From: Chiloscyllium plagiosum
Taxonomy: Eukaryota
Length of the DNA: 64,000 bases
Direction of reading: 5' to 3'
NCBI RefSeq assembly: GCF_004010195.1
Contig: NC_057718.1
Coordinates: 59,106,838-59,170,837, forward strand
In this document: one piece after another, positions 13,954 to 59,392 of the stretch
Numbering within the stretch: position 1 is the stretch's first letter
Layout of the letters: the number at the start of each line of letters is the position of its first letter
The notes under the pieces: generated by a model
What the model was told of the DNA's origin: nothing
The model's database searches: none
What the model saw: only the letters and a program-made list of their open reading frames with translations
Made by a program: the position numbers and the translations under genes

Positions 13954-14089
13954 CAACTAGGAGAAAGTGAGGACTGCAGATGCTGGAGTACCAGAGTTGA
14001 AAAATGTGGTGCTGGAAAAACACAGCAGGCCCAGCAGACTCTCATGCTGCCTGGCCTGCTGTGTTTTTCCAGCACCACATTTTTCAACT
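13954..14089. mobile_element. Fold-back Penelope terminal-repeat mini-insertion lacking the ribozyme core
   Basis: Inverted arms gttgaaaaatgtggtgctggaaaaacacagcaggcc / ggcctgctgtgtttttccagcaccacatttttcaac. 14-bp TSD ttgatgtaaaaggt at 13940 and 14090. Confidence 0.82.
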
Positions 14090-25837: not shown

Positions 25838-26022
25838 TCGATGCTGGAAAGACTCTTCAGCATCTGTGAAGAGAAATTGGAATTAACGTTTCAGGTCCTG
25901 TGATTGAGGATAGGTCACCGGACTAGAAATGTTAACTCTGATTTCTCTTTACAGATGCTGCCAGATCTGCTGAGCTTTTCCAGCAACTTCTGTTTTTGTT
26001 TCTGATTTACAGCATCCACCAT
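25838..26022. mobile_element. Degenerate inverted Penelope terminal-repeat element
   Basis: Imperfect inverted arms cagcatctgtgaagagaaat / atttctctttacagatgctg around a decayed tgagga...gaaatgtt core. Confidence 0.65.
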
Positions 26023-29489: not shown

Positions 29490-29603
29490 GTAAGCAGTAT
29501 TCAAATATTGGTCTCATCTGAGCGCTTGATGAAAAGCAATTGCCTTCTGCACCTCATGGTTAAAGGAAAAACTTTGCAATTAAATATAGGATATGCTTTT
29601 CAG

Positions 29604-29685
29604 GTCTCCAGAGTGCACCGTGCTGCAAAATCTAAAGGATATGTTGGAGGTAGACTTTCCATCCCCGGACAGCCATGAAAAGTCT
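29604..29685 (+). CDS. FANCL: FANCL coding exon (exon 11 equivalent)
   Basis: ttttcag|G TCT...AAG TCT|gtaagt. 82 bp, (W)SPECTVLQNLKDMLEVDFPSPDSHEKS. Confidence 0.95.
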
Positions 29686-32830: not shown

Positions 32831-34480
32831 TTATTAACAAAAAAATTAGTAAAGTATATTATCTAGTCATTTTCATATTGTTGTTTATGTTAACTTAGTG
32901 TATACAAATTGACTACTGTACAAGTTGCTACACATCAAACATAGTTCAGATGTTATTCTGGGTCATCATTAGGTCAAAGAAAGCACAATGTAAATATGAG
33001 TTTGTTCTTTTTCTTTCCAAAGCATTTTAATTCCACTTCTTAGTTTGGCATTGCCTACCCATTTGACTAGTTTTACATTGAACTGAATTTGGGCCATCTG
33101 TTAGTGGGAAAGCAGACCAGGTCAACCCATAATTAAGGATACTGTACATTGACTGCATACTAATCAGGCCATACATCCCTAGCCACACCACAATTTTATA
33201 AGTGATAGCAGAGGCACTGTGAATCACCTGATTGTCGCCCAGTTGAGCGGTCAATTAATGTCCATGTAAGACCTCACACTGCCATCGCTTTGATTTAATG
33301 GTTAGCAAGAAAGGCCTGAACTCAAATTGCACAATAAGTTTAGTAATTTGGCATACTATCATTTAAAGAGGTAAGCTGCCTCTTGCCAGGTTGCAAATAC
33401 CAATCAGAGGCTTCTTTTGCAGTTCTGAAACTACACATCCACGCCCTCTCTCCCTTCCCTGCCCAATATTCCCACCACCACTCTCTTTGTTGGACATGTC
33501 AGATTGAGTACAATGGGATCTCAGAAATACCTAAAGTCTGTCTGTCACTCAAAACCATCTCCTCAGCAAATACCAGTAGTCTCCAGTTGTACGGTGCTGT
33601 CAGTATGCAGAGATCCCAGCCTTCAGTTGAGGCCAGCACTTCCATGAAATGGAACATCTTTCGAGAGAAATGAAAGGCTGTACCTAAAAAAGTAAAAGCG
33701 TGCGAGGCCACTAAACAGAGGCAGATTCTCCCCTTAACTTTCAAAGGTGCGTAAGACCTACACTCAACATATGATCTATTCTGTTTTCAATCAGGGCAGT
33801 TAGTATCTGAAAAACAATAGTGGCAAGACCCAATGCACCTCATTTCTTATCTGATTTTCCTCTGACATTCTGTTTCCAGTGAGTAGTTTCTTACTGAAGA
33901 TGTAAAGGGAAAAAAGGCTTACGTTTATGTAGCGTGTCTTATAACATCCTTGCAACATTCAATTATGATCAACTGTCCCAGTTGTTGCCCAGTTGATATA
34001 TTACCTAATGAGTCAGATTCCTGACAGGAAGCTGGCTGGCTTGATCATAATTTTTGTAACCAAACTGATCTTTTATTAAAACATAAACATGCAATGTTTC
34101 AATCTTTGTTTTAATAATACAACTAAACAGAAGTTATTAACAAAGACACGAAGATAAACAAGAAACAAAATCATTCCAATCCTTTATAAAACAGATTAAA
34201 AGATTTTTAAGTACAAATGAGAAATAATCCAAGCACTCATTACAAATTGAACAGAAACAACAGCTTTGTATTGTAACTAGTATGCACTGGTACATTGTAC
34301 AAACATTGTCGCAGCTCTTAGAACATTCAATACTTTGCCAATAGCAAAACATCATCTAGCTCTATACCAAGGGAGAGAGAATTTTTTAAATACTTTGATG
34401 TGCTTCAAGTAATTAAAATTTCAACTCATCTGCTGGAACTGTAGATAGGTTTTTTCTAATTGTTATTACTATGCTTCTGA

Positions 34481-34709
34481 AGAGAAAATGAGGTCTGCAG
34501 ATGCTGGAGATCAGAGATGGAAATGTGTTGCTGGAGAAGCGCAGCAGGTCAGGCAGTATCTAGGGAACAGGAGAATCGACGTTTCGGGCATTAGCCCTTC
34601 TTCAGGACTCATTAGCCCTTCTCCATTCCTGAAGAAGGGCTAATGCCCGAAACGTCGATTCTCCTGTTCCCTAGATGCTGCCTGACCTGCTGCGCTTCTC
34701 CAGCAACAC
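34481..34709. mobile_element. Palindromic Penelope terminal-repeat mini-element with two inverted hammerhead cores
   Basis: 84-bp inverted arms (34524-34607 and 34627-34710, 1 mismatch). 16-bp TSD attactatgcttctga at 34465 and 34710. Confidence 0.9.
34629..34656 (+). ncRNA. Minimal type I hammerhead ribozyme core (mirror copy on - strand at 34578-34605)
   Basis: CTGAAGA-a-GGGC taat GCCC-GAAAC-GTC. Confidence 0.7.
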
Positions 34710-35564
34710 ATTACTATGCTTCTGACCTAGCTTCTTTCAAGTGCTGACCTATCTCTGACACAGCTTTGATTTCTTTTCTTCTTTTCTTTTAAAACTTCAA
34801 GACCTTAATCTCACTTATTTACCCAACTGTCACCTGTATCCCAATACTGTGGTATGAGATTCATTCTAACTTTGTATGCTAAAATAATGTAAGTACTTTA
34901 AACTCTTTTACTTTGGAATGCTACTACAGCAAATGTACCTCCATCGAAAGACTTCTCAGCAGTTCAGAGCTTGATACCTGCTTCACTCTTGAACAACCTC
35001 CCAGCAGCGAGTAAATGTGGAAGTCAAGTTTGGATCAGTCTTGTCTTCCTCCAGCACCTCCCCCTGCCCCAGTCAACTGGATGGTCCCCTAGAAACTCTG
35101 TGTAACTTTCTCTCATTTGGAATTATGGCTGTTGTAACTTTTTAAAGCAAATTATTCACTAAACAAAAAAACACATGGTTCAGTTTGAGTTCCAAGAACT
35201 CTGGTTTGCAATAAAAATATTTAAAAACATATATATACCTCAGTTTCAAAATACTTAATAACAAATAAATTACTTTTCAAGGATTTCTGGAATAATATTG
35301 TTGATGTCCTTGTTGAGAAATCAGTCAGCAGCCTCTCTACTATTGTCAACTGCAAACCTACCTTCCAAGTCAGTAAACCTTTTGGGATTCTTACACTTTT
35401 GCATGCTCTAAGATAGGCCTTATCAGCAAATTAGTAAATGGGACATGAGCAATTTGTCCTTTCGTAAACATATTTGGTAACTGGGCCTCAATATCCAATC
35501 TCTGGCTTATTCATCAAGGTAATGACTTGATCAATCAGAATTAAACTGTCTGATTTAAAGATCT

Positions 35565-35683
35565 AGGAGAAAGTGAGGACTGCAGACGCTGGAGATCTGA
35601 GTCAAAAGGTGTGGTGCTGGAAAAGCACAGCCGGTCAGGCAGCATCCGAGGAGCAGGAGAGTCAATGTTTCAAATATAAGCTC
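35565..35683 (-). mobile_element. Solo Penelope terminal-repeat insertion
   Basis: ggagaaagtgaggactgcagacgctggag...; imperfect 12-bp TSD atttaaag[a/g]tct at 35553 and 35684. Confidence 0.78.
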
Positions 35684-36227
35684 ATTTAAAGGTCTGACAG
35701 GCAGCCATGTGGAAAATTAACAATGCATCAGTTTTTCTGATGTTGGTTGATGGACAAATTAATTGCTTTTCATAGAAAATCTAGTTAAAATTTATCGAAG
35801 GAGTTGATGAGTTTGGTGAGGTCAGATTTTCCTCTTCCAAGTTCAAGTTAATTGATATATTACTATACAGATCAACATAGAGGTTATTTCTCACAGTCTT
35901 TATTTGGTGTGGATTGGAAGTAAGGCTGTTGGGTTTGAGATTGCCCAAACTTGTTTTGTCATCCTATTTCAATATGGGTACCATGTTTCCAATCCAAGGA
36001 TGCTTTCTCTGTTCCCATTGACTACTTCATCATGATGGTCAGTACTTTAGAATTCCTTGCTCATCACTCTCAGCACTATGGTATAAACAGAATATATGTC
36101 AGTGAATATATTTGTTTTGAATTGCTTTGTAATCTTTCTAGTTCCAGTTATTATCAGAACTTTAATTTTACCCAGCAAATCTTAAATTTGTCTGTTGATC
36201 ATCTTGTCACTTGGATGAACTAATCAC

Positions 36228-37102: not shown

Positions 37103-37219
37103 AGTTTCAGTATGGAATGTGGAATCTGTTATGCATACCGTCTGGCTTCATCCATACCGGATCAAGTGTGTGATGACCCACGCTGTGGTCAGCCATTCCA
37201 TCAAGAGTGCCTTTATGAG
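37103..37219 (+). CDS. FANCL: FANCL coding exon (exon 12 equivalent, RING N-half)
   Basis: gacag|AGT...GAG|gtgagt. 117 bp, SFSMECGICYAYRLASSIPDQVCDDPRCGQPFHQECLYE, with C4HC3 RING ligands. Confidence 0.98.
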
Positions 37220-40144: not shown

Positions 40145-42670
40145 CTCAGAGTCATACAGCACGGGAGAGGCCCTTTGGCCCATTGAGGCTGTCCTGACCG
40201 TTATATACTGACCTTACTTTCCAGCATTTGGCCCATAGCCTTAAATGTTAAGAGACTGCAACTGCTCATCCAAGTACTTTATAAAGATTGACGTTTCTGG
40301 CCTTTGCTACCCTCCTGTGCAGCGCATTCCAAATTTCCACAAACCTTTGGGGGAAAAGTTTTCTTTTATCCTCAAATCCTCTCTAAACCTGCCCTTCACC
40401 TTATTTTTATACCGCCTCTTTATTGACCCTTCAACTAAGTACTACAACTGCTTCCTATTCATCGTGCCCATGCTGCTCATAATCTTAAACACTTTATCCA
40501 GATCTCTCCTCAACCTTCTCTACCCGAAGGCAAACCGTCAGAGACTATCCAGCCTCTCTTCATACCTAACATACTCCATCCCAGGCAACATCCTGATGAA
40601 TGTCTTCTGCACACTCTCCAGTACAATCACATCTATCCTACAGTGTGCTGACCAGAACTGCACACAGTACTCCAGCTGTGGCCTCGCAAAAATTTTGTAC
40701 AGCTCCAAAATAACCTGCCTGCTTTTATAATCCATGCCATGACTGATAAAGTCAACTGTCCCGTGTGCCCTCCTAACTATCCTGTTACCCGGTCATGACC
40801 CTTTCAGGGATCTGTCGATAAACATCCCAAGATCCCTCTGTATTATGAGCTTCCTAGTGTCCTGCCATTTGTTGAGTACTCTCTTGTCTTGTTACTTCTT
40901 CCAAAGTGCATCACTTCACACATCTGTGTTATAGTCCATCTGCTACTGATATGCCCATCTGACCAACCTGGTTATATCTTCCTGTAACATAAGACCTTGT
41001 CCGCACTATTAACAACACTGCCAATCTCTGTGTTATCCACAAACTTATTTGCCAACCTTCCCAACATTCTCCTCTATAGCATTCACATATCTTACAAACA
41101 GTAAGGGACCCAACACTGATGACTGTGCTTTGCCACTGGACACAGCCTCCAGACACACACAGTTTTCAAGTACAACCCTCTATCTCCTGCCACTAAGTCA
41201 ATTTTGAATCTGACTTGCTACATTATCCTAGATCCAATGTGGTTTTTACCTCCATTGTTTCCTATGTGGAAATTTGACAAAGGCTTTCCAAAATTCCACA
41301 TAAATATAACAGCTGCAGTATCCTCATGTACATATCTGATCACCTCAAAAAGTTTTCATCAGATTTGTTCTGATAAAGCCACATTGACTATTCCTGATCA
41401 AATCTCACCTTTCAATGAATTACTTTCTTCAGAATTTTCTCCAATAGTTGAATTGCAATTGATGTGAGAGTTGTTGGTTTGGAATTCCCTGGTTTATCTC
41501 TAGCAGCTTTGGGACAGAGCTCCTGTAATTTCCTCCCTCACCTCCCACAGCAATCTGGAATACAACAAATCTGGATCAGGATAGTCACCTGATGAAGGAG
41601 CATCGCTCCGAAAGCTAGTGTGCTTCCAATTAAACCTGTTGGACTATAACCTGGTATTGTCTGATTTTTAACTGAATATTCCTAGACATTCAGGGTTCCC
41701 TGGCCTCTTTGCTGGTACGTTTCATCTTAAAGGGAACGTTATGGGTCAGTATTTCCTTTTCCATTTCCTTTTGAAATGTCTCCCACTGTTCTGCAATAGA
41801 TTTTCCTACAAGTTCCTGCTGCCAGTCTACTTTGGCCAGATCCTGCCTTATTTTAATTAAAACCTGCCTTCCTCAGCCCAAACCTTTTTTGCAGACCATC
41901 TTTTTCCTTTCCATAACAAACTTAAAATGTAGTGTAGTCATCGCTGTTATTAAAATACTCTCCCACTGCCACCTTGACCACATGTCCAGCTTTGTTCCCC
42001 AGAATTTGCTGCAGCACTGCATCACCTCTTGTTTGACTTCTGACATGTTGACATAAAGAGCTCTCCTGGATATATGTCAATAAATCCACACCCTCTAAAT
42101 TCATTACACTATGATCATTCAAATTAATGTTAGGGAAGTTGAAATCCTCCAATATAATTACCCTGTTATTATTACTTTTACACATCGAGAAATGTGACTC
42201 CCATTTTTATTCTTAAGCTCGATCCACAAAGCCTTTTTCGAAGACCCTTCCAAGATGTTGTCCTTCCTTATTGTAGTCACTAACTCCTTAATTAATAATG
42301 CAACACTACCCTTTTACATCCTCCCCTATTCTGCTTGAACATCGTTTCCCCAGAATGTTGAGATGCCAACTCTGCCCCTCCCTCCACTACATCTCTGTGG
42401 TACCAACAACATTGCTGGAAACTCAACGTGGCTGAACTCCTGCCTTGGTTCTTTTACTATAGTATGCTTTGTCTCTATTGTACTAATGCTGTATTCTCTC
42501 CCTCCGCCAAACTAATTTAAATTCCTCCCAGCAGCATTAACAAACCCACCCACAAGGTCCCATTCAGTTGCAGGTGCAGACCGACCCACTTGTACAGGTC
42601 CTACCTTCCCCAGAAACCGTCCCAGTACTCCAGGAATCTAGAACCCTCCCTTTTTGCACCAATTGTTGAG
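40145..42670 (-). mobile_element. Decayed CR1 LINE (endonuclease to 3' end)
   Basis: LYKIFARPQLEYCVQFWS..ESVQKTFIRMLPGM and RVIILEDFNFPNI motifs. Confidence 0.9.
41586..41620 (+). ncRNA. Minimal type I hammerhead ribozyme in a PLE terminal-repeat fragment (~41580-41675)
   Basis: cac-CTGATGA-a-GGAGC atc GCTCC-GAAAGCTA-gtg. Stem I cac/gtg, 5-bp stem II, palindromic AGCT stem III. Confidence 0.72.
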
Positions 42671-43751: not shown

Positions 43752-44213
43752 TTAAAAAAACATGATTACTAGGATAATCGAAACTATCAAGACAAGAACC
43801 GCAAAACCATATAGTAAGACATCTGATTTTATTCGGATTTGATCCTGGAACATGATGGAAGGTACTGTTGGCTCAGTCACTCTTGTTTCCTTCTGAACAG
43901 TCATTGTGACCTCTGGTTTACTGTAAGTAAGCTGAGGACCTCTTGGAAGTTCAGTTGGACCAATTATTCTAGCTTTATTCTGAACAGTCATTGTGACCTC
44001 TGGTTTCCTAACCTTGACCTGAGGTGATATTGAAGATTCAAATAAACCAGTCATTTTTGGTTTGTTTTGTACAGTCATTGTGACCTCTGCTTTTCTATCC
44101 CTTAGCTTCAGTGAAGCTGCATGTTCGACATTACGCAGTGTGCTACTTTTCTCTTTTGTCGATTTTGGTTCGTGTTGAGTTTGTCGTCTTGTTTTGTGTC
44201 TTGTTACAGCTGC
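43752..44213 (-). CDS. VRK2: Terminal coding exon of a tail-anchored protein, most likely vaccinia-related kinase 2 (VRK2A-type C-terminus)
   Basis: Acceptor tttctcgtacag|GCA. 154 codons including the stop, AAVTRHKTRRQ...VLLYGFAVLVLIVSIILVIMFF*. The C-terminal hydrophobic anchor and convergent position next to FANCL match the known vertebrate VRK2-FANCL arrangement. No kinase exons were recognised in the window. Confidence 0.75.
   Translation of the reverse strand, partial: AAVTRHKTRRQTQHEPKSTKEKSSTLRNVEHAASLKLRDRKAEVTMTVQNKPKMTGLFESSISPQVKVRKPEVTMTVQNKARIIGPTELPRGPQLTYSKPEVTMTVQKETRVTEPTVPSIMFQDQIRIKSDVLLYGFAVLVLIVSIILVIMFF
43833..44093 (-). repeat. Coding tandem repeat, 3 x 87 bp (29 aa), core K[AP]EVTMTVQ
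   Basis: acagtcattgtgacctctg recurs at 43897, 43984 and 44071 (period exactly 87). Confidence 0.93.
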
Positions 44214-47200
44214 CTGTACGAGAAATTTATTATACACATTAAAATGATGAAAAGTAATAGATGTCATTGAAAATGATACATAACTCAAGACCACAACTAA
44301 GTTCTTTAATTGTTTATTAGAGTAGAAAATGTTATTGTAACTTCTTCATATTGTATCTAAAGTTATTTGAGAAAATTGCATTTCCAAGTGCAATAAGTTT
44401 TAACAATATCACTCGAAAGTTTGAATGTCCTGACTATATGCTACTGCTTTTCCACCAAAGAAATACAGCATTTATTTTACCATAAAGTATCAAGATACCA
44501 CATAAGTTACATTACAAATGTTTTAAAAATGCAAGACGATGACTAACTAGTAGATTTTGTAAAAGGAAAAAAAAATTGCAATATGTTTCTGGTAACATTT
44601 TAAAATGAAAAATACATAGTTTAGTGAAGTCTCCATATTAAAGTCAAAGTCTTGAAGTAAATCATAAAATGAAACTTTTGTTTTTGTAATATTACATATT
44701 GATTTGTGAATTGGGAGGTGCTTTTTCCAGCTTGTTTAAAGATGTTGATGAAGTTGAACCAACTAATGTTGATAAACTGTGATGAAAAGCACTGAAGAAC
44801 ATCCCTATCACACCATCACAAATCCATTCAATCCATGACATAGGCACTTTGTTTTTGTAGAGAAGAATGGTTCCATCATCTTTAAGTAATAAGCCAAGAG
44901 ACCATCGTGAACTATTAAATTTTCATGTGTTCATCATTAAGTTACATAACAGCTGCTAATGGCTATGCGATTATTAGCAATGAGTTCTTACACTTGATTT
45001 TTGGAGGATGTACAAGTAAGTGATAGTACCAGCCTGGGAGAGCAGGTAACTGGCTCAGTCAGTAGAGCTATCCTTGAGAAGGGTGTGTGTGTTTGTGTTC
45101 AAGTCCCATTCCATTAGAGTCGACCACAAAATTAAAGTTGACAATGTAATACTTAGGAGATGCTGCTGGAACTGTCGTCTTTCATGTTAAAAGAAGTTCA
45201 TGTTAAAATGAAGTTGCTTGTGCCAGCTCTGATAGAAGTATATGATTCTATGAAAATATCTGAAGAATGCTGCTGCAAGTTACTTACTTCAACTTTTATA
45301 TTTACAGCTGTGACAGGAAAGTTCTGTTCTTAGTGATGAAAGGTGTTCTATAAATGCAAGCTCACAAAAAGAAAACACTCTAGTTAAGAAAAAAATCTTT
45401 CCATGATTTTAAATTAATTTTAAAAAGGAAATCAAGATTTTGACTAATCAATCAATATGACATGGACAATTATAACCAGAATGTAGCTAACTTTTAAATA
45501 AGATCGGCCTGGAACTACATTCGTTAAAAAGACGGACGTACAGATTTATTTGTCTATTCAGTTGCTGAACGGTTTGGTATAATGACAACTTTATAGTTGG
45601 GAATTTCCTCAAATTTTTCATCAGCTGTTAGAAGAATCCTAGATACCACTTTTATGAGCATTAATGAGGTTTTCATTGTACTTCTAAGAAAATTACAATA
45701 ACTGAGGAAATTCCTGCTGCATGTATTTTTTTGTGGCAATATTTAAACTTCAAAGTGTTGCACTCTTCAAATTCACCATTTATCTGATATATGATTCATC
45801 TTAATTCCTCACACTGCTGGTCCTTTTAAGGCAATGATGGTGTAAATTAGACGTCTTGCAATAGGTCAGCTAAAACTGACATTGGATCTGAGTTATGAAT
45901 TCAAACCTAAGTTCAAACATAGACATATTTTGAAGTATTTTGTTTAAGGTAAAACAGGGGTCCTGAAAAGGGGGGTGTTAACTGTCCTAAATTCTGCCCA
46001 GATTCACTCCCTTGCAATGGGGCATAGGCCCTGGTCAAATCCCATAAAACTTCAACTATCCATTTTCACACCAGGACACGATGGTTAGCTGCTCTTTTTG
46101 GCTACAGACTTTGATTTAGAGGTTCTGGAGTGAAAGAGAAATTCTTGGACAGGAAGACCAAAAGTAGCTGCTCTTATACCAGGAAGAGGAAAAGACTATT
46201 TTGAAACAAAAACAGAAATTACTGGAAAAACTTATTGTTAGTAGAATGCTGACATAAACAGATTCTCCGTTTGACAAGATGGAATTTCTAGAGTTTGAGG
46301 GGCCAAGAAGGACACCCCTTGGAAGGTGGTCAATGAAACTCCGGAGAATGGGTAAAGAACATCAGAGGATTCACCCTGATGTGCTGGGGAGAAGGGAGCC
46401 CTTCAAGGCCACATATGTTTAGTGTGTGCCATAACACATAAACATAGTATGGGGTTTTTGACAGTGCTAATTCATTCTTTTTTATCTGCAGTTTAATGTA
46501 TTAAGTTGCCTAGTAAATAATGTTTAGCCTATGTTGTTGCAGTGAAAGTCTTAATTTGTGAAATCTTGTTTGATACTTTGTATTGGTTACTGGAAATGCA
46601 ATGCAGGCTTCTCCTGGCATAAAAGTTAATTTAAAATGACCTCCTGACCACTTCAGCTGCAACACCAGCTGAAACTAGGTACAGTAGGCAAGGCACATCT
46701 CTGCCCATTCGAGTCTGAAATTGTTATCCAGTCCTAATATCTGCACATCTGAGGTCAGAAAAGGTAATTAGCGCTTCAATATATACCTCTGCAATTTTGC
46801 ACTAAGTTTCAATTTCTATGTTGAAATCAAATTAAATGATTGTCAGGTACCCTTGTTATGTTTGATTCTCTAGTTATTTCAGCCACAAGCCCACATCCCC
46901 AACACATAATACCATGGCTTAGAAAGAAAATTCAAGTGATAGAGGATGAGTATTTATTTTAGCCTTGTTGCAAGTTTGTGCAGTGCAAACATTTATTACA
47001 GTACAATTTATGGCAACATCAATACATGAGAATTATTATTTTTAGCATTTTCAGTTTTTATAGCTTGTTTTGATATTGGCAGAGGTAACAATGGTGGCTA
47101 GATACTTGTCCTTCTTTGAATATCACTTTGTCCTTGTTTGAATGTCATTTTGTGATCTTAAAGAAATTTGAAAATCTGCCACCCATCAGAAGGATGACAG

Positions 47201-49034: not shown

Positions 49035-49285
49035 AACCCCTCATCTTCCACCTTGGGACCCTTCCATCACACGGCATTAACATCGACCTTCCCAGCTACA
49101 TTTCCCCCCAGCCCCAATCCCTATTTATCTCTCAGCCCCCTTGCCCCTCTACATTCCTGATGAAGGGCTTGTGCCTGAAATGCCAACTCCCCTACTCCTC
49201 GGATGCTGCTCAACTGCTTGTGTTTTTCCAGCGCCACACCTTTCGACTCTGACTCTCCAGCATCGGCAGTCCTCACTTTCTCCTT
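49035..49285 (+). mobile_element. Penelope-like 3' end with degenerate hammerhead (49157-49184)
   Basis: LIFHLGTLPSHGINID ORF end, then ctgatga-agggcttgtgcct-gaaatgcc and the terminal gtcctcactttctcct. Confidence 0.8.
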
Positions 49286-59107: not shown

Positions 59108-59392
59108 TAACCACCTGACGAAGGAGCAGGGCTCGAAAAGCTAGCGCTTCCAAATAAACTTGTTGGACTATCACCTGGTGTTGTATGATTTTTAACTTTG
59201 TCCACCCCATCCCAACACCGGCACCTTCAAATAATCACTCTCAATGCATTCTCTATGGTAATGCCTCTACCAATCATTGTCCACTTATCAAACAATAAGC
59301 ACTGTCCTCTAATAAGCACAAATGATGGTTTTCCCTTAACTAGTATTCTTGTAAAATGTCCTGATGAGTGGAGGGTAAAAAGCTTCAATGAG
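59108..59392 (+). mobile_element. Two adjacent PLE terminal-repeat fragments with hammerhead-like cores (59115-59143 and 59361-59386)
   Basis: ctgacga-aggagcagggctc-gaaaagcta (same family as 41589) and ctgatga-gtggagggt-aaaaagcttc (decayed). Confidence 0.65.

What the first reader, a model, noticed from the sequence alone, without database searches (positions are those of the whole stretch)
34465..34725. TSD-flanked palindromic mini-retroelement carrying a hammerhead ribozyme core on each strand
Seen: a 229-bp insert between exact 16-bp target duplications. It is made only of a Penelope terminal repeat folded into 84-bp inverted arms with 1 mismatch. Each arm holds CUGAAGA-stem II-GAAAC-GUC, and the inversion pivot sits just 5' of the cores. 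Established: Penelope-like elements carry minimal type I hammerheads with palindromic stem III, thought to act as dimers. Inference: this is either a non-autonomous ribozyme-bearing fold-back element mobilised in trans, or a recurrent product of Penelope TPRT with template switching. In the FANCL pre-mRNA it would form a long dsRNA that sequesters the sense ribozyme.
Basis: partly seen in the sequence, partly recalled or inferred. Interest (0 to 1): 0.75.

Follow-up and report, generated by a model that had tools for sequence, protein, structure and literature searches.

The report
Twin-primed Penelope stub in shark FANCL
This 229-base mirror-image insert in a FANCL intron is one of more than 6,600 short back-to-back stubs of a Penelope-type jumping gene in a shark-like genome; each is likely built afresh when both cut DNA ends copy the same 5' end of the element's RNA, and its ribozyme is predicted to be locked inactive in the hairpin.

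Summary
The anatomy is real: exact 16-bp TSD, 84-86-bp arms with one mismatch, a minimal hammerhead core on each strand, in a FANCL intron. It is not a separate fold-back family. It is the pseudo-LTR end of an abundant GIY-YIG Penelope-like element (Neptune/Nematis-type linker), in the published 'inverted copy + one-sided tail + TSD' form. The genome holds at least 6,683 such pivots. The pivot site is shared, but loops vary, and identical junctions recur in four subfamilies and in both arm orientations, so palindromes are likely made anew at each insertion. 77 of 78 compact palindromes carry the 35-nt tail on one arm only; arms end at two fixed sites (+94-97, +127-133). Copies stop sharply at +1, an Initiator-like site at the 5' edge of helix I, and 59% of 14,680 such ends carry an extra G (27% expected), as a capped RNA start would give. 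No excess of ends at the ribozyme cut (1,164 vs 1,167). Best model: twin priming on the capped 5' end of the RNA; ribozyme a passenger. The scan noted this before on other DNA (8 notes, two in this genome).

The parts
34465..34480 (+). Left target-site duplication (16 bp). Its last 3 bases also match the element's continuation (+130..+132).
   Evidence: subfamily continuation seen in L097, L105
34481..34607 (-). Long arm, element sense on minus, +3 to +129 (+1 = first A of ATTCC before the core)
   Evidence: 1 difference in 127 from many copies of the same subfamily
34481..34515 (-). PLE 'tail' between the two priming sites (about +95 and +130), present on this arm only
   Evidence: tail defined in PMC11167929 and PMC8557442
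34578..34605 (-). Minimal type I hammerhead core, minus strand; the loop gives it a 5-pair helix I (two G-U) on paper
34608..34623 (.). Junction loop: CT + 13-nt templated re-copy of arm sequence (34610-34622) + C
   Evidence: (D4)
34624..34712 (+). Short inverted arm, -1 to +85 (+88 counting 3 bases shared with the TSD), no tail
34629..34656 (+). Minimal type I hammerhead core, plus strand; GUC at 34654-34656; helix I = C-G, U-A, U.U, A-U
34710..34725 (+). Right target-site duplication
37103..37217 (+). FANCL RING exon downstream. The upstream exon is at about 29600-29685, so the insert is intronic.

Best explanation
This is a young, dead-end stub of an endonuclease-bearing Penelope-like retrotransposon, likely built at insertion by twin priming. 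In the model, the GIY-YIG nuclease makes a staggered cut of about 14 bp. Each 3' end primes reverse transcription at one of two fixed sites 35 nt apart (about +95 and +130) near the 5' end of the element's RNA. Both cDNAs run to a likely capped start at +1 and are joined head to head with small templated insertions. SHOWN: parent element, family size, two 3' end sites, one-sided tail, sharp +1 boundary with extra G, variable loops, no excess at the ribozyme cut. INFERRED: that +1 is a capped start; that both arms are primed from target nicks; that one RNA usually serves both arms. The hammerhead is a passenger: each transcript holds one sense core, predicted to be locked in the hairpin.
For: Parent: copies run upstream into an ORF with C-X4-CxxC, YIGETGR and CCHH residues; its relatives carry GIY-YIG and RVT_1; copies run downstream into a candidate ATG at about +167 (L152, L191). 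Family: 6,683 exact pivots, control 0. Two 3' ends: of 98 anchored arms, 23 end at +94-97 and 72 at +127-133, single-arm copies included. 77 of 78 compact palindromes have the tail on exactly one arm; TSD 12-18 bp in 64 of 78. 5' hot spot: 50 of 98 arms end at -7..+21, against 5 at -8..-60 and 11 at +22..+65. Genome-wide, 14,680 arms break at +1 against 42,681 that continue natively; 8,649 of the 14,680 (59%) have an extra G, 27% expected. Both arms reach +1 with 0-1 base between, or overlap, in 8 of 50 listed pivots (by eye), too tight for a hairpin loop. Identical junctions occur in both tail orientations and in 3-4 subfamilies. Arms agree at seven lineage markers in 93 of 105 arm-pair comparisons in 100 palindromes. 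Both TSD edges share a G-rich-outside, C/T-inside profile in 83 targets. In vitro the anole PLE protein cuts and extends both strands and starts at two sites bounding the tail (PMC11167929, main text, methods and most references read: parts 1-3 of 4).
Against: No RNA start was seen at +1: no read-start pile-up in the one raw RNA run with reads. The extra G is weaker in non-palindromic junctions (18 of 41 by eye, p 0.016) and could be terminal-transferase addition at a stall. About 11 of 100 listed native-G rows end at -1, others at -2 to -5 (by eye), and the L009 loop copies sequence from about -45 to -60, so some templates extend past +1. This copy's short arm reaches -1 and ends at +85-88, short of the +94-97 site. 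12 marker discordances (some elements with two) suggest two RNAs at times. The in vitro paper reports no difference in start site between strands.
Confidence: 0.72

Rival explanations
1. Single priming plus snap-back: one cDNA runs to the RNA 5' end, folds on itself and copies itself. This is related to the self-priming idea in PMC3846280.
For: Many loops look like snap-back products (GG/CC or TTC/GAA pairing, templated re-copies), including this one. Arms usually share lineage markers.
Against: Short arms end at the same +94-97 site that single-arm copies use. Either arm can extend further 5', including the tail-less one. Junctions with both arms full to +1 and 0-1 base between exist. Snap-back may still finish the joint after twin priming.
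Confidence: 0.15
2. A non-autonomous palindromic mini-element is transcribed and retrotransposed as a whole, and its centre is reshuffled later by hairpin cleavage and repair.
For: Shared left end and pivot in the 26 distinct loci among the 30 BLAST loci read. Some junctions recur (10 of 50 for the commonest).
Against: The same junction occurs in several subfamilies and with the tail on either arm. Subfamily variants sit on both arms alike, as expected if each palindrome is made from single-arm RNA. This copy's one mismatch is a rare change (36 arms genome-wide, 25 of them G>A). None of the other 25 BLAST loci read has this loop. Short, single-arm and long copies form one series.
Confidence: 0.07
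3. Hammerhead self-cleavage (retrozyme-like monomers or circles) defines the RNA template and the pivot.
For: The core meets most minimal-HHR features (PMC4209133). Retrozymes derive from PLE pLTRs (10.64898/2026.07.22.740005, abstract, introduction and part of methods read).
Against: A type I cut lies 3' of the core (+32/+33), while the pivot is 5' of it. Ends at +33 number 1,164 against 1,167 at control +35. This copy is not a tandem array. HHR mutants do not affect insertion in vitro (PMC11167929).
Confidence: 0.04

Closest known systems
EN+ Penelope-like element insertion with inverted 5'-truncated pLTR, one-sided 30-40-bp tail and TSD (PMC8557442 passages; Pen2a_Av in PMC3846280 passages)
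   Same: Head-to-head inverted copy, tail on one side only, TSD, Inr-like motif in the pLTR, hammerhead in the pLTR, C-terminal GIY-YIG parent.
   Different: Reduced to the pLTR 5' end alone (229 bp) and present in thousands. The fixed +1 stop with extra G, and the reading of the two arm ends as the two RT start sites, were not found in the papers that my searches returned; PMC3846280 proposes antisense self-priming instead.
Poseidon_Ac (PAc) of Anolis, in vitro (PMC11167929)
   Same: Two RT start sites bounding the tail, inside the pLTR-ORF junction; both strands cut and extended; HHR dispensable for insertion.
   Different: PAc is Poseidon clade; this parent has the CX2-5CxxC linker. The paper does not analyse palindromic stubs.
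Minimal type I PLE hammerheads (PMC4209133, results and discussion read)
   Same: Core, extra base before helix II, G10.1-C11.1 pair, palindromic CG at 15.2-16.2. That paper also notes dual min-HHRs on opposite strands 100-700 bp apart in Schistosoma.
   Different: Helix II is 4 bp, not 7-8. Helix I has a U.U mismatch in this subfamily.
Non-LTR retrozymes (10.64898/2026.07.22.740005)
   Same: Short, non-coding, PLE-derived, type I HHR.
   Different: Retrozymes are direct tandem repeats; this is a single inverted pair.
LINE-1 twin priming (recalled, no call)
   Same: Two target nicks prime on one RNA and give an inversion.
   Different: There the inverted and direct parts do not overlap. Here both copy the same stretch and give a palindrome.

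Membership tests
EN+ Penelope-like element (insertion of) | Parent ORF with RT and C-terminal GIY-YIG endonuclease upstream of the pLTR | tested here: met
   EN ORF runs into this repeat in L052, L061, L063. The piece itself had no Pfam hit; homologs at 65-72% identity carry GIY-YIG and RVT_1. No single full-length copy was fetched.
EN+ Penelope-like element (insertion of) | Inverted 5'-truncated pLTR, one-sided 30-40-bp tail, TSD | tested here: met
   77 of 78 one-sided tails
Neptune/Nematis clade | CX2-5CxxC linker before GIY-YIG, and CCHH motif | tested here: met
   C-X4-CxxC and the CCHH residues read in the L061 ORF; definition from PMC8557442
Neptune/Nematis clade | Placement in an RT phylogeny (Neptune versus Nematis) | not tested
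   no tree built
Minimal type I hammerhead (min-HHR) | CUGANGA/GAAA/UH core, unpaired base before helix II, G10.1-C11.1, palindromic 15.2-16.2 | tested here: met
   against PMC4209133; helix II keeps its stem while its loop varies among four subfamilies
Minimal type I hammerhead (min-HHR) | Helix I of 4-5 bp | tested here: inconclusive
   Plus core: 3 pairs + U.U. Minus core: 5 pairs through loop bases. Pair probability about 0.01 even in an isolated arm. One subfamily has a perfect AUUC/GAAU helix.
Minimal type I hammerhead (min-HHR) | Self-cleavage as a dimer | not testable with these tools
   needs in vitro assay; no genomic trace of cleaved templates
Non-LTR retrozyme | Direct tandem repeats, each with an HHR | tested here: not met
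   single inverted pair
Self-propagating palindromic mini-element (MITE- or SINE-like) | Copies descend from a palindromic master and share loop and arm asymmetries | tested here: not met

The most novel reading that the evidence does not exclude
These stubs are a genome-wide record of the Penelope insertion reaction. A PLE dimer primes both target nicks at the two tail-bounding sites on one capped RNA whose start coincides with the 5' edge of hammerhead helix I, and copies the same stretch twice. This would explain the long-unexplained inverted pLTR and one-sided tail without an antisense template, and would show that the ribozyme does not process the template.
Probability: 0.6. Interest if true: 0.55.

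Novelty: new member of a known kind. Interest (0 to 1): 0.3.

Why it matters
The locus itself is an ordinary young transposon stub in an intron, with no evidence of function. The family statistics matter more. How PLEs make inverted ends is described as unresolved (PMC8557442, PMC3846280), and thousands of short copies give sharp, testable predictions for the existing in vitro PLE system: two primers, two start sites, run-off at a cap, no need for ribozyme cleavage. Thousands of near-perfect intronic hairpins could also be a source of dsRNA, which was not tested here.

Tried and rejected
Rfam: no hammerhead family hit, only hairpin-type matches below threshold. Ribozyme cut as pivot: rejected. 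'CTCCATTCC' as a native upstream sequence or a circle junction: only 187 matches with mixed continuations, mostly snap-back-type junctions. The 34557/34677 mismatch as a sign of two templates or of editing: its recurrence among BLAST hits was selection by the query; only 36 arms genome-wide differ there. A splice acceptor at +1: no AG at that site. RNA: no RNA holder listed. One raw single-cell run (about 2 in 100 of it read) shows family reads on both strands, a depth step at +1, 11 reads across a palindromic joint and no start pile-ups, which mirrors genomic copy structure; a second raw run laid nothing. No listed read or contig spans this locus, so expression, editing and circRNA remain untested. 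Look-up of earlier findings by sequence gave nothing. Searches for a paper on cap-derived G in PLE junctions gave none; the cap-G signature, the Initiator consensus and the FANCL motifs are recalled knowledge. The dimer-cleavage paper on PLE hammerheads (recalled) was not itself listed. Supplements of the cited papers were not opened and may describe such stubs; Repbase/Dfam entries could not be checked.

Full report
Observation. The TSD is exact and 16 bp, the insert is 229 bp, and the arms 34524-34607 / 34627-34710 have one mismatch. The RNA fold is -199.5 kcal/mol, z -24.8. Each strand has a CUGAAGA-A-GGGC(UAAU)GCCC-GAAA-CGUC core. FANCL lies on +, and the insert is in the intron between an exon at about 29600-29685 and the RING exon at 37103. 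The left 41 bases are unpaired, and the loop contains a 13-base re-copy of arm sequence. Coordinates below set +1 at the A of ATTCC, four bases before the core (34625 on the plus arm).

Parent element. Among 30 loci taken in genome order by an exact core pattern (4,804 matches), several continue upstream into a pyrimidine-rich UTR and an ORF with C-X4-CxxC, YIGETGR and CCHH residues. That ORF piece had no Pfam hit. Its best relatives, named from carpet sharks (65-72% identity), carry GIY-YIG and RVT_1. The linker marks Neptune or Nematis (PMC8557442 passages); no tree was built. Two loci continue downstream of the tail into a candidate ATG at about +167. The repeat is therefore the pLTR, which sits both after the ORF and before it.

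Family. An exact pivot pattern matches 6,683 places, reversed control 0. The 30 BLAST loci read (26 distinct) mostly share the left end and the pivot but differ in loop and TSD. Among the first 50 pivots listed, about 35 loops are distinct; the commonest occurs 10 times (by eye).

Two 3' ends. I anchored 98 loci on +65..+94 (the first 100 listed of 3,793 matches, two pairs being the same locus). Of these arms 23 end at +94-97, 72 at +127-133 and 3 elsewhere. In 78 compact palindromes from loci L031-L233, 77 carry the tail on exactly one arm and 64 have a 12-18-bp TSD; 7 had none detected. This is the 30-40-bp tail that lies between two RT start sites in the anole PLE, whose protein cuts and extends both strands (PMC11167929, parts 1-3 of 4 read).

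A sharp 5' boundary. 50 of the 98 arms end at -7..+21, 5 at -8..-60, 11 at +22..+65 and 32 beyond -100. Genome-wide, with one fixed filter base, 14,680 arms have a non-native base just before +1 and 42,681 have the native one; 3 of the 100 listed non-native rows were mutated long copies (by eye). 8,649 of the 14,680 (59%) carry an extra G in sense, against 27% from base composition. In non-palindromic junctions the share is 18 of 41 (by eye, p 0.016). The native context TCATTC fits the Initiator consensus, and reverse transcriptases are known to copy a cap as an extra G (both recalled). Drosophila Penelope has an internal TATA-less promoter (PMC2377424 passages), and an Inr-like motif was noted in a rotifer pLTR (PMC3846280 passages). 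I read +1 as a capped start: priming in the 5' pLTR gives stubs, priming in the 3' pLTR gives long copies. Against this, some copies end at -1 to -5, one loop copies upstream sequence, and no read starts were seen.

Made anew each time. The junction type of this copy (GGAATG|GAGAAGGGC) occurs in 11 loci, in four subfamilies, with the tail on the right arm in 6, the left in 4 and neither in 1; other junctions behave alike, though two small classes were one-sided (5 of 5 and 3 of 3). Arms agree at seven lineage markers in 93 of 105 comparisons in 100 palindromes (that set includes the BLAST-selected loci). Unshared differences are mostly C>T and G>A (85 of 136), as expected after insertion. This copy's long arm is one base from many single-arm and long copies, and that base is a rare change (36 arms genome-wide), so the insertion is young. 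A palindromic master is thus unlikely. Simple snap-back does not explain why short arms end at an independent start site, why either arm can reach further 5', or the joints with both arms full to +1. It may still finish the joint, as this copy's templated loop suggests. Both target edges show the same weak G-rich-outside, C/T-inside profile (83 targets), consistent with a symmetric double cut.

Ribozyme. The core meets the min-HHR features of PMC4209133 (parts 1-2 of 4 read) except for a short helix II and an imperfect helix I. In either full-length strand the probability of stem II is 0.0000, and forcing it costs 13-20 kcal/mol; in an isolated arm it is 0.8-1.0. On both strands the antisense arm is transcribed first, so there is no kinetic window (inference). 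Cleaved RNA would start at +33, but ends there are no more common than at +35 (1,164 vs 1,167; both lists include some merely mutated copies).

Novelty. The shape is published (PMC8557442, PMC3846280), and opposite-strand min-HHR pairs were noted in PMC4209133. My searches returned no paper on twin priming or a capped run-off for PLE palindromes; supplements and repeat databases were not seen. I reached this reading before consulting earlier notes. Eight earlier notes of this scan say much the same, two in this genome; they are not independent support. Verdict: a real, ordinary young member of a known insertion type, with a useful mechanistic inference. Interest 0.3.

Noticed in passing
window 41585-41650: A second PLE-type minimal hammerhead family (core at 41589; a relative at 59115). 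In raw RNA run X20, over 100 reads have loose ends at about 41585 and 144 end at 41646-41649 in poly(A): polyadenylated ends just past the ribozyme, probably from other copies.
   Followed up: no
L070/L071, L097, L114, L121, L165, L166, at about -113: A recurrent junction of the PLE 3' end to about 200+ bases of a CR1-like LINE piece (identity recalled) in the same subfamily as the window copy: likely a non-autonomous chimeric source locus.
   Followed up: partly
window 35567-35692: An older single-arm copy of the same repeat, 1.1 kb downstream and 75% complementary to the right arm. Further remnants at 13961-14082, 25953-25987 and 49143-49282.
   Followed up: no
L025 1460-1760: The palindrome continues into flanking host DNA instead of ending in a TSD.
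   Followed up: no
L150 (minus strand 1330-1660): The loop between the arms is a tandem run of about 13 copies of the tail segment, suggesting repeated re-priming at the tail.
   Followed up: no
L152 1608-1982; L191; L075; L173: Partial tandems or inversions in which sequence from the ORF start is joined at or within a few bases of +1 of a second copy.
   Followed up: partly
L004, L007, L023, L029, L033, L058, L141: Arms that differ at lineage markers, candidates for insertions built from two different RNAs.
   Followed up: partly
window 43752-44345 (minus): A 197-codon open frame with repeated EVTMTVQ motifs and a hydrophobic C-terminal stretch, no Pfam hit; possibly the last exon of a convergent membrane-protein gene next to the FANCL 3' end.
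   Followed up: no
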